Shown one piece after another: positions 14,877 through 62,915 of a stretch of 64,000 nt of DNA (positions are counted from its first letter, which is position 1; the number at the start of each line of letters is the position of its first letter). Source of the DNA: Eledone cirrhosa. Taxonomy: Eukaryota. Location of the stretch: NCBI GenBank assembly GCA_964016885.1, contig OZ024740.1, positions 177,568,001-177,632,000 on the forward strand, given 5' to 3'. The notes under the pieces are model-generated. The model saw only the letters and a list, made by a program, of their open reading frames with translations, did no database searches and had not been told where the DNA came from. A program made the position numbers and the translations under genes.

Positions 14877-14957
14877 GCCTTCTGAAGAGAGTTCCCTTCT
14901 CAATGGAGATCCGCCTTGATTATCCGTTTATTTGGAACTTGAAACCGCGGTAAAAGC
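14877..14957 (+). ncRNA. Minimal type-I hammerhead ribozyme motif
   Basis: gcctt-CTGAAGA-gagttcc...ggaactt-GAAA-ccgcgg-TA-aaagc. Stem II is 7 bp, stem III is palindromic, GUA site at 14950-14952. Followed by a ~70-nt tail into (TA)n. Confidence 0.8.
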
Positions 14958-15686
14958 ACATATAGTAAGTATAGCGAATTTTTTAAAATTTATTAAAAAA
15001 CTTTTTCTCTATTTGCTAGACCTGGATTTTATATATATATATATATATATATATATATATATATATATATATATATATATATATATATATATATATATAT
15101 ATATATATATTATATATATATATATAATTTAGCGAGAATCATATTTCGACTATTGGAAATTAGCGAAAAACAACTTCTGAGATGTGTGGCAAGCGCTCAA
15201 TAGATTCTAACGAACCAGAGCTACAACATACGTTAAAAGGCCAAACACACTGAGACGATGGTTAAACCATTATCCGCACAGCTATAGAAACGACCAAGTA
15301 ATTCGGGTCAAACAAATAAAATAATATGATTTAAAAATACGATTGAAAAAAATATAAAATAAAATAAAAATATATATATATATATATATATATATATGTA
15401 AGTATGCATGTATACGTACATACATATATGTATACAGACGTACAGTAGCATGCATATATATATACATATATATATATATATATATATATATATATATACA
15501 TATATATACATACATATGCATACAGGTACACATACATATATGCACGTATCAGTTTAGCGGACGCTTATTATAACGCCGCTTTGTTCGTTTGTAAACAAAC
15601 TGAACAGCCTGAATTTATGCCATACGGTGTTAAGGCAACCACGTCACCTTTTTTTTTTTTTTTTTTTTGTTCAACACTGACACAGG

Positions 15687-15731
15687 AACGATGTACTAGT
15701 TTCAAGCTTGTTAGCTATCATCAGCACCGTT
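15687..15731 (-). ncRNA. Minimal hammerhead ribozyme motif (inverted copy)
   Basis: Reverse complement of 15979-16023. Confidence 0.82.
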
Positions 15732-15978
15732 TACCCACATGCATGCTACTGTACGTCTGTATACATATATGTATGTACGTATACATGCATACTTACATTT
15801 AAGTAAGTGCCATACTAAGAGTGAGAAATGAAATTTCGTTTTCATTTTATTTCAATTTATCGTTTTCGGTATGCCTGACCGATTTAACTCACTCAATATG
15901 CAAATTAGGCTGCTCAGCCGTTAATTTTCATAAGGAAAGTATATACTTTCGAACGTTCAACTATCTGGCAGATGGGTA

Positions 15979-16023
15979 AACGGTGCTGATGATAGCTAAC
16001 AAGCTTGAAACTAGTACATCGTT
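15979..16023 (+). ncRNA. Minimal hammerhead ribozyme motif
   Basis: aacggtg-CTGATGA-t agct aaca agct t-GAAA-ctag-TA-catcgtt. Stem I is 7 bp, stem III palindrome CTAG, GUA site. Confidence 0.85.
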
Positions 16024-16925
16024 CCTGTATCAGTGTTGAACAAAAAGGTGACGTGGTTGCCTTAACACCGTATGGCATAAATTCAGGCTGTTCAGTTTGT
16101 TTACAAACGAACAAAGCGGCGTTATAATAAGCGTCCGCTAAACTGATACGTGCATATATGTATGTGTACCTGTATGCATATGTATGTATATATATGTATA
16201 TATATATATATATATATATATATATATATATATATATATATATATATATATATATGTATATATGCATGCTACTGTACGTCTGTATACATATATGTATGTA
16301 CGTATACATGCATACTTACATTTAAGTAAGTGCAATACTAAGAGTGAGAAATGAAATTTAGTTTTCATTTTATTTCAATTTATATATATATATATATATA
16401 TATATATATATATATATATATATATATATATGCATAACACAAACACAAATCTATGTCCCTTTCCCTCTCTTCTCACGCACGGGCACACACAAATTCACAC
16501 TCACACATGCATTCTCAGATCAACAGTGACCACACACCAATTCTACACCACCATCACCACCGTCACTGCCACCAGAAACAACAAAATTTACCATACATAC
16601 ATATAGGCAACGGGATAAAGGAGTTAGGGCTTGAAGTGTGGTGGGTGTGCGTGTTACAGTAGACAGGGAGCGGAGTGTGTCAAGTTTTAGTTTTTTGCGG
16701 AGGTGATAAAATTGAAGAGGAAGCGATTCAGGTGGATGATGAATTGGACTATGGATTGGGAGAGGAGAGAAGAAGGTAGGCCTCAGGGAGATCTCGATTG
16801 AGGGAACGAATTTGCGAGAGGGTAGAACGGAGGGTCGCCTGCATGAGATGTCGAGAGGAGAGGAGAAGGATAGGTTTAGTGATAGACGCTGAGTAGGTGG
16901 TTGGGTAGAACTGAGGCAGATTTCT

Positions 16926-17002
16926 ATCTTCTGATGAAGGATTAGCGTTTCACTATTATACCAAACGTAAAACAAATAATACGGATCCGAAACTGCCGAA
17001 GA
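16926..17002 (+). ncRNA. Degenerate hammerhead motif
   Basis: tctt-CTGATGA-aggat...atcc-GAAA-ctgcc-gaaga. The cleavage triplet appears mutated (GCC). Confidence 0.55.
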
Positions 17003-59327: not shown

Positions 59328-59433
59328 GTCTAACAATTGTTTCACTGATTAAGTTGTCTAAAAATTGCTGAACACTAGAAGCAGTGCCACTCAATTTCAA
59401 ATACGATGTTAGCGTAATCAGATCACCAGAGAC
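59328..59433 (-). ncRNA. Hammerhead motif with variant core and 79-nt stem II domain
   Basis: Minus strand: gtct-CTGGTGA-t ctgatta...taatcag t-GAAA-caattg-TT-agac. Confidence 0.72.
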
Positions 59434-60832
59434 AACTACAAAAATATCCGGTAAATTTACAATATTCAAATTACAGCATCATTAATAATATTTATAATAA
59501 AGATAGAGAAAGAAAAAAAGAAAGAGAGATAGATAAAAGAAAGAAAGAAAAAGGAAAAAGAAAAAGAAAAAGGAGAAAGGAAAAAGAGAAAGGTATAGAG
59601 AGAAAAAAAGACATAGAGAAAGGAGGAGAGAAAGAGGAGAGAAAAGGATAAAGGAGAAATAACGGTAACGAAAAATAAAAATAAAGGGAAAATAATGATA
59701 TCAACAATAAATGAATAAATAATTAAATAAATAAATGTTAATACATGAATAAATGTAAATAAATAAATAAACAAGTTACATCGAGGATGATACAAAATAA
59801 TACAAAATATGAAAATAAATAAATAAGTAAAAATGGGCGAAGAAATTTAAACATATTAAGATTATTGAGAGTGGTTAAAATATAGAGATACGAAGGTATA
59901 AACATTATAATGTTAAATATATTTATGTGTGTATTGGTTATTTTAATAAATTAATTATATAATTAATTAATTATTTGATTAATTAGTTGTAAGTTATATT
60001 AGAAGTGAAAATGATATGATAAGATAGAGTAAGATAAAATAAGATAAAATGCCAGAGATGAAATAAATTTAGGGAGAGAAATAGAAAGATAGAAAGTGAA
60101 AGATAGAGATATATAAAATATGAATGTAAAATATAAAAGGTTATGTTGTTGGTTCATTGAGAGATGATGACAATTATAATAATAATAATAATGATGATAA
60201 TGGGATATTATAATAGATCTAAGTGGTACAATTTGGGTTATGGAATAGATTAGATGAATTAAGCTGGTCTAAAGTTCTCAAATTTGGTCGCCGTTTTATG
60301 CCTACAGAAAATAGTTCTTTCAATTTTACTGTTAAGTAGCATTTTGTTGTAATTTAAAATTTGGAAAAGCTCCATATTACAAAGACCTCAGTGGGACATG
60401 CCAATTCTATAGGCTATTGCTGTTGATAGCTTCGTCCATCTAATTTTATATTCCATGTTTGCATCTCTGAGTTGCCAGATTTTATTGGTGAGTGTTGTAT
60501 TCATGAGCTTCCTGTTATTCATAGAGTGTCTATGGACATATCACCTTTTCTTAAACTCCCCCGCTGTGGAACCAATGTAATGCTATGCTAAGCTACCCGA
60601 ATTTATAGTACATAGGTACACTATATATGACTCCAGGCATCTATTTTGTAATGGGCATTTGTCAGGTAGATGGCAGTTACATTTAAATGCTTTTCTATGT
60701 GCCGGTTCTTCGATATGGTTTTGTAAGTTATGTACGGGCTGAGAATTGGGTTTGTTGATGTATTGTGGTGATGCGTTCTGACGTGTGTTTGGTTGTGATG
60801 ATGTTATATGAAGTACCATAAGGGAAGGGAGA

Positions 60833-60878
60833 TAAGCAGATATATTTGTTTCACACTGTTGGTGTTCATCAGAGCTTA
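60833..60878 (-). ncRNA. Minimal hammerhead motif (stem III imperfect)
   Basis: Minus strand: taagct-CTGATGA-acac caaca gtgt-GAAA-caaatata-TC-tgctta. Confidence 0.68.
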
Positions 60879-61017
60879 GCACTCGCCGACCTTTGTTGAA
60901 AATTATAGAGGCTGGATTGTTATAGAATTCCAGTAATAATCAGGAACTGATTATACAGAGCGATTGCCGGTCCAGCAAACATTGAAAATTAGGATTGGTG
61001 CTCTGAAATAGCGATGT

Positions 61018-61204
61018 ATACATGAATGTATGTATAGTATATCTGGCGATATACTGTATGTTTAATTAAAAACATTTTGAAGACCTTGCGCTATTGAAAA
61101 AAGAAGGAAGTGACATAGTCAGTACTTTAAAATAACGCAAGGTCTTCAAAATGTTTTTAATTAAACATACAGTATATCGCCAGATATACTATACATACAT
61201 TCAT
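61018..61204. repeat. Fold-back inverted repeat abutting (TA)n
   Basis: About 61022-61095 is the reverse complement of about 61132-61204. Same family as 46523-46945. Confidence 0.8.
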
Positions 61205-62253
61205 ATATATATATATATATATATATATATATATATATATATATATATATATATATATAATTTTTCCCCCGGTGTTCGCAAGACTTACGTTCTTAAAGCA
61301 CCCGCGACGAGTGAAAAACTGCGAATATTGGCCGTGGTCAAAATATAGCGTAAAATATAGGCCGGCAAATACGGTATATTGTTATTAATAATGTAGCGTT
61401 AAAAAGCGTGAAAAAATATATATTGCCACGAAAAAAGCCATAAAAAAATTGCGGTAGATATTTGTGGTTCCACGAACAATTATTAGTTATGTTCCAAAAA
61501 AATTCCGCGAATAACCGAGACAGCTAATGCCGGGTGTACACTGTATATATATATATATAAAATATATATATATATATATATATATATATATATATACACT
61601 CACTCACACATACACATACACACACACACACACACGCACACACACGCACACACACATATATATATATATCTGTGTGTGTGTATATATGCACACACACACA
61701 CACACTCTCTCTTTTTCTTTTTGTCCTGCCCACACAATTTCACGAGGAAGATTTATATACACAGGAAGAAAATGCTCATGCACCTAGCCCACCAATTATT
61801 AACAAATAAAAAAGCGTAATTTTAATTATTTATTTATTCCCCAGTATCATATAATGTCTAGCGGGGTTTTCACGTTCACACTGTTTTGCGCGCCTGTTTT
61901 ATGTACAGTATGTTTTTTAATGATATGACTCAAATCAACATTCTCTACTTTCTTTATTCCCCAATATTCAATGTTGTTATATATGTGTGAACGTCTAGAA
62001 TGTGCTATATACTAGCATATTAGGCAAGTGCCTAAGTATTGCGAGTGAAATTTGGTAGATGATGACATAACATGGAAAGACACGGTAACACATGTTTCGT
62101 TAAGAGAACTCATTATTAGTTGAGATCGCTCAAGGAAACGCGTGTTCCTGCGTTTCTCGCTGTAATGGCTTATTTCTCTCTCTCTCTCTCTCTCTCTCTC
62201 TATATATATATATATATATATATATATATATATATATATATATATATATATAA

Positions 62254-62915
62254 TTAGAATTTAGCTTCGAACATAGGTGTATACAAATATATATTTGAAT
62301 TTCGTATTTTTAAAGAAATACGGTATGTTTATAAATAAACATTTAGAAAGCCATAGCTATGAATAACACACTGGCAGCTAACGACACCAGGTGGTGTTCG
62401 GCAGAAGCAAGGGGAATAATCGTCGATGCATTTCGAACTCAACTGGTGATCGTCAGGACGATCTCTCCCGTTTTTGCAGCTGCTTGGTCGCATTAGCTGT
62501 GTTATTCATAGCTATGGCTTTGTAAATGTTTATTTATAAACATACCGTATTTATTTAGAAATACGAAATTGAAATGCATATTTGTATACAGCTATGTTCG
62601 AAGCTAAATTTTAATTTAATTCTATTATAAGTTGAGCCAACTTATACAGCTTCATAAGCAAATGAGATTAATCACCTCATTTACACAGACGAGAAAACTA
62701 AATATTTTCGCCTGTTTTCAAAGTCCGACAGTTGCAAGAGCGAGAGAGATCGTCCTGACTCGAACCAGTTGCGTTCGAAATGCATCGACGATTGTCCTCC
62801 TTGCTTCTGCCGGACACCGCCTGGTAGCGTTAGCTGCCAGTGTGTTATTCATAGCTATGGCTTTCTAAATGTTTATTTATAAACGTACCGTATTTCTTTT
62901 GAAATACGAAATTCA
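62254..62915. mobile_element. Penelope-like fold-back element (three-part architecture) with two damaged hammerheads
   Basis: 62254-62468 is inverted relative to 62743-62915. 62499-62615 is a direct tail copy. Hammerheads at 62419-62462 (-) and 62749-62792 (+): atcgtc-core-gaac..gttc-GAAA-tgca-TC-gacgat. (TA)n on both sides. Confidence 0.8.

What the first reader, a model, noticed from the sequence alone, without database searches (positions are those of the whole stretch)
14945..62784. Each hammerhead family uses a different palindromic stem III: a possible family-specific dimerisation code
Seen: between GAAA and the UH are CCGCGG (14945), CTAG (16011), CGCGCG (17351), CACGTG (18531), TATATA (26486, 46334, 50975), TGCGCA (31027), CTGTACAG (45363), CAATTG (59334) and TGCA (62781), plus near-palindromes CATTTG, CTATTG and CAACTG. 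Established: hammerheads with an unstable stem III can cleave as double hammerheads by pairing palindromic stem III between two copies. Inference: the differing palindromes would restrict cleavage to two copies of the same family (tandem pLTRs or in trans), insulating co-resident families and keeping solo copies silent in host transcripts.
Basis: partly seen in the sequence, partly recalled or inferred. Interest (0 to 1): 0.72.

Follow-up and report, generated by a model that had tools for sequence, protein, structure and literature searches.

The report
Shared pairing palindromes in Penelope hammerheads
The window holds hammerhead RNA motifs from many families of Penelope-type jumping genes; their self-complementary third stem is real and likely lets two copies pair up to cut, as already published, but unrelated families use the same palindrome, so it is not a family-specific code.

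Summary
All 11 palindromes are at the stated places. Ten are true stem III inserts of type I hammerhead families at the 3' ends of Penelope-like elements (PLEs) or tandem retrozymes. TGCGCA (31027) is a misreading: its stem III is CCGG. Inserts are kept within families and stay self-complementary across them, including inner pairs a monomer cannot form, which fits the published dimer model. The 'one palindrome per family' claim fails. In the window, three families share TATATA and three share CAATTG (CAACTG and CTATTG are decayed CAATTG). In a 1.9-Mb sample, 34 of 62 curated families share their insert with another; reuse exceeds random (12 distinct of 21, 18 expected); abundant families are non-palindromic. 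About 92% of family pairs are still predicted unable to cross-pair, so insulation is partial and likely a by-product of compensatory drift. Side result: the 31027 family is a Neptune-like PLE whose hammerhead has C at conserved core position 13 in 3,972 exact copies, against 24 with A; cleavage may be dispensable there. The scan reached the same verdict before on another piece of this genome. No cleavage was tested.

The parts
14882..14952 (+). Type I hammerhead, insert CCGCGG (14945-14950); family with ~484-bp tandem units
   Evidence: (21 of 29 best hits exact)
15694..15724 (-). Inverted twin of the CTAG hammerhead
15986..16016 (+). Hammerhead, insert CTAG (16011-16014); 468-bp tandem retrozyme-like family (19 hits in the L336 array); CTAG shared with a second, distantly related family
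17196..17236 (-). Damaged inverted twin of the CGCGCG hammerhead
17279..17358 (+). Hammerhead, insert CGCGCG (17351-17356), long stem II
   Evidence: (17 of 29 exact)
18529..18559 (-). Hammerhead of an old family with U3-A8 core, insert CACGTG; this copy has GAAG for GAAA
18808..19162 (-). GIY-YIG endonuclease remnant upstream of the 18531 hammerhead
   Evidence: tblastn with PLE-like ORFs from loci
26357..26402 (-). 5'-truncated inverted twin of the 26486 hammerhead
26444..26493 (+). Hammerhead, insert TATATA (family F7)
   Evidence: (9 of 9)
26983..27087 (-). Hammerhead, insert CATTTG (central U-U mismatch), long stem II
31020..31049 (-). Hammerhead fold of a Neptune-like PLE: U3-A8 core, 4-bp stem II, C at position 13 (GCAA), insert CCGG (31022-31025).
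32230..32730 (-). GIY-YIG remnant of the same element, about 1.2 kb upstream of its hammerhead
4418..4447 (+). Sister-lineage hammerhead (U3-A8 core, canonical GAAA, insert TCGG = decayed CCGG)
44303..44425 (-).
45361..45430 (-). Hammerhead, insert CTGTACAG
   Evidence: 27 of 29
46101..46148 (-). Inverted twin of the 46334 hammerhead
46294..46341 (+). Hammerhead, insert TATATA (family F0; subfamilies TATATA and TATGTA)
46650..46687 (-). U3-A8 hammerhead candidate, insert CAGACTATCTG
47373..47485 (+). Hammerhead-like motif with CCGATGA core in all copies seen; insert CTATTG, family state CAATTG
50936..50982 (+). Hammerhead, insert TATATA (family F2, no flank match to F0 or F7)
   Evidence: (23 of 29 exact)
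51127..51156 (-). Hammerhead, insert CAACTG, family state CAATTG; 2-bp stem II
51408..51873 (-). GIY-YIG remnant upstream of the 51129 hammerhead
55839..55899 (+). Hammerhead, insert TATGCA; family states TATGTA and TATATA
59332..59429 (-). Hammerhead, insert CAATTG, long stem II; core damaged in this copy
   Evidence: CAATTG in 27 of 29
60262..60843 (-). GIY-YIG remnant upstream of the 59334 hammerhead (same link in 10 of 22 family hits)
62425..62456 (-). Hammerhead, insert TGCA, intact core
62755..62786 (+). Inverted twin, insert TGCA (62781-62784), damaged core
63215..63282 (-). Hammerhead with a long hairpin stem III, predicted stable as a monomer

Best explanation
These are type I hammerhead motifs at the 3' ends of Penelope-like retroelements and their tandem non-coding derivatives; their stem III is self-complementary, likely so that two copies pair into a double hammerhead that would cut the element's RNA, and its sequence is shared by unrelated families. 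Shown: the motifs, the link to GIY-YIG/RT or to 310-560-bp tandem units, conservation within families, compensatory changes between sister families, and reuse between families. Inferred: selection keeps only self-complementarity; the letters drift by G-U intermediates (TATATA-TATGTA, CAATTG-CGATTG-CGATCG) and central indels; some lineages switch to a hairpin that could form in a monomer. Family identity of the insert then follows from common descent. The inability of most family pairs to cross-pair is a by-product, and the functional partner is most likely the next copy in the same tandem transcript.
For: Scan blind to palindromy: 132 hits in 1.2 Mb vs 5 in two shuffled sets; 57 of 76 4-nt, 21 of 32 6-nt and 6 of 10 8-nt inserts are perfect palindromes (tandem arrays inflate the 4-nt count). 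Among 17 distinct 6-nt inserts the middle pair is WC 15, GU 2 and the innermost pair WC 14, GU 2, mismatch 1; these pairs cannot form in a monomer hairpin. Sharing: 34 of 62 entries; 33 identical pairs between different lineages. 21 lineage-level perfect 6-mers use 12 sequences vs 18.0 expected (P=2e-4; 15.6 and P=0.02 if limited to 32). Family F0 has 8 recurrent stem II haplotypes and 2 inserts; F11 has 3 and 1. Sister switches CATATG/CAATTG, CAATTG/CGATCG, CTAG/CGCG, CCGCGG/CCGTACGG/CCGATTCGG. PLE link. Literature: PMC4209133, PMC3088659 Fig. S8 legend.
Against: No cleavage or expression data. Only 16 of 195 insertion events in the sample are same-strand tandems (142 solo, 37 inverted only), so most copies have no cis partner. 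14 of 62 entries are mismatched or odd-length, including abundant GAAC/GGAC families next to GIY-YIG ORFs. Family F9 varies more in stem III (2 states) than in stem II (1). PMC7229834 reports efficient cleavage by invertebrate retrozyme hammerheads with a 2-bp tetraloop helix III, so 6-8-nt inserts may not need a dimer. PMC11167929 found cleavage protein-assisted and unnecessary for insertion in vitro. Families and lineages were curated by hand from a small sample.
Confidence: 0.8

Rival explanations
1. One reading: different palindromes are selected so that only two copies of the same family can pair and cleave, insulating co-resident families.
For: Inserts are conserved within families, 39 distinct inserts occur among 62 entries, and only 155 of 1891 family pairs are predicted to cross-pair within 1 kcal/mol of the weaker homoduplex. 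Families sharing an insert might have been active at different times; ages were not compared.
Against: 34 of 62 share exactly; 42 of 62 have a compatible foreign partner; reuse exceeds random; close relatives are mostly compatible (26 of 41 within-lineage pairs). Four same-strand different-family pairs with identical insert lie within single 10-kb regions. In the window three TATATA families lie on the + strand, two of them 4.6 kb apart.
Confidence: 0.07
2. The palindrome serves RNA-RNA pairing for another purpose (holding two template RNAs together for retrotransposition, giving the two-armed inverted insertions), with cleavage secondary or dispensable.
For: The 31027 PLE family has C at conserved position 13 in 3,972 exact copies; A 24, T 39, G 11 look like post-insertion mutation, and the 4 A copies fetched fall at separate places in the tree. 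It keeps CCGG and flanks a full RT-GIY-YIG region on both sides (L347). Catalytic mutants did not reduce insertion in vitro (PMC11167929). One abundant family displays CTAG in a loop.
Against: The sister lineage keeps A13 and nearly all families keep an intact core. The C13 family is too young (about 1-10% divergence where flanks align) to show selection on CCGG. A 6-bp duplex is weak. The effect of A13C is recalled, not measured or found in the papers read.
Confidence: 0.09
3. Stem III works as a monomer hairpin; palindromy is a relic or a side effect of hairpin closure.
For: Odd-length and long inserts are predicted to close 3-8-bp hairpins; invertebrate retrozyme hammerheads cleave well in monomer constructs (PMC7229834).
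Against: Innermost pairs are complementary in 16 of 17 distinct 6-nt inserts and switch in compensated fashion; 2- and 4-nt inserts cannot form a hairpin beyond one pair.
Confidence: 0.04

Closest known systems
Minimal and palindromic-helix-III hammerheads in pLTRs of metazoan Penelope-like elements (Cervera & De la Pena 2014, PMC4209133)
   Same: Type I topology, short stem I, unstable palindromic helix III, many variable families per genome, U3-A8 variant, mostly solo copies, opposite-strand pairs 100-700 bp apart, location next to RT/GIY-YIG.
   Different: Here inserts are mostly 4-8 nt and up to 17 nt; no insert-free family was confirmed; stem II reaches about 100 nt; one large family has C13.
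Metazoan non-LTR retrozymes (Cervera & de la Pena 2020, PMC7229834; preprint 10.64898/2026.07.22.740005)
   Same: Non-coding head-to-tail units with one type I hammerhead each (310, 467, 468, 485, 558 bp; longest stop-free stretch under 100 codons).
   Different: Units are at or above the published 170-400 nt range; expression and circular RNA were not testable.
Repeat-type hammerheads with palindromic stem/loop III (Perreault et al. 2011, PMC3088659, Fig. S8 legend); double hammerheads of ASBVd and newt (Forster 1988, seen only as cited)
   Same: Varied palindromic stem III sequences that would pair fully in a dimer; U10.1-U11.1 mismatch and C3U/G8A covariation.
   Different: No tabulation by family or test of specificity in the passages read; A13C is not among the variants in section 8.
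Neptune-clade PLEs (Craig et al. 2021, PMC8557442)
   Same: 31027 family: RT with DKG motif, Cys-rich linker, C-terminal GIY-YIG, tandem and inverted copies ending in (TA)n.
   Different: Clade assigned from motifs only, no tree; its hammerhead core is non-canonical.

Membership tests
Type I hammerhead ribozyme | Core CUGAnGA ... GAAA ... UH (or U3-A8 covariant) | tested here: met
   Family majorities for 9 of the 11 listed sites; U3-A8 for 18531 (TTGAAAA or TTGATAA in 15 of 32 rows, old family)
Type I hammerhead ribozyme (31027 family) | Invariant A13 | tested here: not met
   C13 in 3,972 exact copies vs A 24, T 39, G 11
Type I hammerhead ribozyme | Stems I and II with covariation | tested here: met
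   Descriptor scan 132 vs 2.5 per shuffle; compensated stem variants among subfamilies
Type I hammerhead ribozyme | Self-cleavage after H17 | not testable with these tools
   No assay possible
Dimer-type (double) hammerhead | Self-complementary stem III too weak for a monomer | tested here: met
   48 of 62 entries perfect or wobble palindromes; forced monomer helix +1.9 to +6.0 kcal/mol for 4-6-nt inserts vs homoduplex -2 to -14 except GAAC (+1.4) and GGAC (-1.7)
Dimer-type (double) hammerhead | Faster cleavage as dimer than as monomer | not testable with these tools
   Needs in vitro kinetics
Penelope-like element | RT plus GIY-YIG upstream of the hammerhead-bearing repeat | tested here: met
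   31027 family full length in L345-L347; GIY-YIG remnants upstream of 59334, 51129, 18531. Not shown for the TATATA, CTGTACAG, CGCGCG or TGCA families
Penelope-like element | Tandem and inverted 5'-truncated copies | tested here: met
   Divergent twin pairs; 37 inverted-only and 16 tandem of 195 events
Non-LTR retrozyme | Short non-coding tandem units each with a hammerhead | tested here: met
   CTAG 468 bp, CGCG 310 bp, CCGCGG 485 bp, CTAATTAG 558 bp
Non-LTR retrozyme | Expressed as linear and circular RNA | not testable with these tools
   No usable data
Family-specific dimerisation code (proposed) | One insert per family, not shared | tested here: not met
   34 of 62 share; 12 distinct of 21 vs 18 expected
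Family-specific dimerisation code (proposed) | Insert conserved within a family | tested here: met
   best hits to a query that included stem III, so biased upward; stem III masked

The most novel reading that the evidence does not exclude
The palindrome is an RNA dimerisation signal for PLE retrotransposition that can work without cleavage: a Neptune-like family reached at least 3,972 copies with a C13 core that is probably crippled while keeping CCGG, so the hammerhead fold would act mainly as a handle that pairs two template RNAs, and compatibility groups of palindromes would set which families can pair.
Probability: 0.1. Interest if true: 0.7.

Novelty: new member of a known kind. Interest (0 to 1): 0.27.

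Why it matters
As it stands it is a clean comparative confirmation of the published dimer model (inner pairs covary across dozens of families) and a negative result for a family code. The genome offers ready test sets: same palindrome in unrelated families, wobble intermediates, dimer-to-hairpin switches between sisters, and a C13/A13 sister pair. The last bears on the open question of whether hammerhead cleavage matters for PLE transposition at all.

Tried and rejected
Rfam at gathering and E<=10 thresholds: no hammerhead hit among listed rows. Single-strand folding of 8 motifs gave z-scores from -1.84 to 0.50, uninformative. First descriptors missed U3-A8 cores, 2-bp stem II and inserts over 12 nt; on them I first judged 18531 and 31027 to have no core and corrected this. 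Pfam on 77 long ORFs found GIY-YIG in only 1; PLE links came from motif search and tblastn. Tree of CCGG families: an off-by-one masked position 12 and broke the labels, so only the placement of L341-L344 was used. Rows dropped before the 62-entry table: clusters F43 and F92 (mis-parsed), F67, F71, F73, F77, F86, F94 (doubtful), F30, F47, F55, F62, F83, F84 (2-3 copies, ambiguous or redundant), doubtful clusters and the singletons (one singleton pair, CATTTG, was kept). Lunse et al. 2017 and Nelson & Uhlenbeck 2008 could not be read. Two searches and passages of PMC9901934, PMC6257768 and PMC5934650 gave no A13 rate data. A (TA)n origin for TATATA was considered: possible for its slippage variants, but flanking stems show it lies inside intact folds.
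Full report
1. Observation. All 11 strings are at the stated places; four are read on the minus strand. GAAA-palindrome-UH is at chance level by itself (31 vs 28 +/- 6), but with an exact CTGAnGA within 50 nt upstream there are 11 matches at 7 sites vs 0.23 expected. Rfam did not detect these motifs. The window lies in a 3.0-Gb animal genome rich in (TA)n.

2. Families of the window sites. I searched the genome with 8 window sites. Each search gave 301-2303 first-look candidates, of which 40 were scored; 10-30 loci were kept per search. 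Exact GAAA-insert-UH matches among the other copies were: CCGCGG 21 of 29, CGCGCG 17 of 29, CTGTACAG 27 of 29, TATATA (26486) 9 of 9, TATATA (50975) 23 of 29; CAATTG was the insert in 27 of 29, and CACGTG in 9 of 29 of an old, CpG-decayed family. These queries included stem III, so the figures lean high; clustering with stem III masked gave the same majorities for the five canonical-core families and both TATATA families. The 18531 family uses the U3-A8 core. The 31027 site was misread: the fold is a U3-A8 core, a 4-bp stem II, GCAA, insert CCGG, TA. CAACTG and CTATTG are decayed CAATTG; CATTTG recurs once independently.

3. What the elements are. GIY-YIG remnants lie upstream of four window motifs on the same strand (59334, 51129, 18531, 31027). 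L347 shows hammerhead - RT/GIY-YIG region - hammerhead over 4.85 kb for the 31027 family, with DKG and Cys-linker motifs typical of Neptune-like PLEs; the ORFs in the three loci fetched are broken. The CTAG, CGCG, CCGCGG and CTAATTAG families form non-coding tandem units of 310-558 bp, i.e. retrozyme-like. For the TATATA, CTGTACAG, CGCGCG and TGCA families no own ORF was shown. Twins in the window are divergent inverted pairs, the PLE pattern described in PMC8557442; such twins are on opposite strands and cannot pair as sense RNAs in one transcript.

4. Sample across the genome. I took 120 roughly evenly spaced 10-kb stretches and added the 689 kb of search loci. A descriptor blind to palindromy found 132 motifs in 1.2 Mb vs 5 in two shuffled sets; 57 of 76 4-nt, 21 of 32 6-nt and 6 of 10 8-nt inserts were perfect palindromes. 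From clusters I curated by hand 62 family or subfamily entries (dropped rows are listed under Tried and rejected): 41 perfect, 7 wobble, 6 mismatched, 8 odd-length. Among 17 distinct 6-nt inserts the outer pair is WC in 17, the middle pair WC in 15 and GU in 2, the innermost pair WC in 14, GU in 2 and mismatched in 1. The inner pairs cannot form in a monomer hairpin, so their conservation supports pairing between two copies.

5. Test of the code. 34 of 62 entries share their insert with another (CAATTG 6, TATATA 5, CCGG 4, TATGTA, CGATCG and GAAC 3 each). At lineage level 21 perfect 6-mers use 12 sequences against 18.0 expected from 64 (P=2e-4) or 15.6 from 32 (P=0.02). 42 of 62 entries have a foreign partner predicted within 1 kcal/mol of their own homoduplex. 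The three CAATTG families of the window have no flank similarity, nor does 50975 with the other two TATATA families. Within families stem III is usually more constant than stems I and II (F0: 8 stem II haplotypes, 2 inserts; F11: 3 and 1; F9 is an exception). Sister families differ by compensated swaps, wobble steps and central indels. Lineage groups were set by hand, sharing may be ancestral retention, and family ages were not compared. Of 195 insertion events in the sample, 142 are solo, 37 inverted only and 16 tandem; 4 same-strand different-family pairs with the same insert fall within single regions.

6. Mechanism. Most likely (0.8): a tandem or read-through transcript brings two hammerheads together, the two stem III strands form a 4-12-bp duplex, and each core cleaves (inferred from PMC4209133 and the covariation; not tested). 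Selection fixes self-complementarity, not the letters. Some lineages carry a hairpin predicted to form in a monomer. Caveats: PMC7229834 reports efficient cleavage for invertebrate motifs with a 2-bp helix III, and PMC11167929 found PLE hammerhead cleavage protein-assisted and unnecessary for insertion in vitro.

7. Side finding. In the 31027 family position 13 is C in 3,972 exact 30-nt matches, T in 39, A in 24 and G in 11. This is the spectrum expected from mutation away from C, and the four A copies fetched do not group. The sister lineage keeps A. A13 is listed as consensus in PMC3088659 and A13C is not among the variants in its section 8. That A13 changes strongly reduce cleavage is recalled, not from a call. 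The family thus amplified with a probably impaired ribozyme.

8. Literature seen. PMC4209133: parts 1-2 of 4 (abstract, results, discussion). PMC3088659: passages and section 8; 11 supplements searched for 3 terms without hits, figures not held. PMC7229834: passages and section 14. Preprint 10.64898/2026.07.22.740005: parts 1-2 of 5. PMC6765202, PMC8557442, PMC11167929, PMC6155905, PMC9901934, PMC6257768, PMC5934650: passages only. Lunse et al. 2017: title only, through a reference list; it may bear on novelty. Searches listed no paper whose title or abstract start points to a family-specific code or a natural A13C; the library lacks most subscription papers.

9. Verdict. Real motifs, known kind, known dimer design; the strict family code is refuted by the sequence. 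Interest 0.27, mostly for the comparative test set and the C13 family.

Noticed in passing
window 31020-31049 (-); L345-L347: Neptune-like PLE family with a U3-A8 plus C13 hammerhead core fixed in 3,972 exact copies; the sister lineage keeps A13.
   Followed up: yes
L149:1184 (-), L250:5759 (+) and 24 events in the 1.2-Mb sample: The most frequent family in the sample has a 14-nt insert forming a 4-bp hairpin with CTAG in the middle of the loop, like a kissing-loop site; its insertions are very short and often inverted.
   Followed up: partly
L282:5602, L310:1027, L284:4048: GAAC/GGAC families about 220-250 nt downstream of the end of GIY-YIG-containing matches have non-palindromic inserts; GGAC could pair through tandem G-A mismatches (recalled motif).
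   Followed up: partly
L261:4376-6328, L271:3804-5309: The younger 467-bp CTAG family sits directly against or inside copies of the 468-bp CTAG family in 2 of 4 events (same 10-kb region in 3 of 4, 0.67 expected), probably through the TA-rich middle of that unit.
   Followed up: partly
window 47373-47485 (+); L303:4495, L183:539: Families with a CCGAnGA core (C at position 4) in all or most copies seen.
   Followed up: no
   Followed up: partly
window 9821-10009, 38221-38419, 40624-40819, 47539-47736, 57194-57390 and others: An abundant ~190-bp interspersed repeat, SINE-like, 80-92% identical.
   Followed up: no
window 4687-5046 and 9678-10239: Near-identical direct repeats (98%) around a GC-rich ~4.6-kb stretch with ORFs of 200-285 codons; the four scanned had no Pfam match. 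LTR-like arrangement.
   Followed up: no
window 52574-53021 and 54897-55345: 449-bp direct repeats, 98% identical, 1.9 kb apart.
   Followed up: no
window 860-2465, 12497-14172, 38466-40596: Long minisatellite arrays (18-, 15- and 9-bp units).
   Followed up: no
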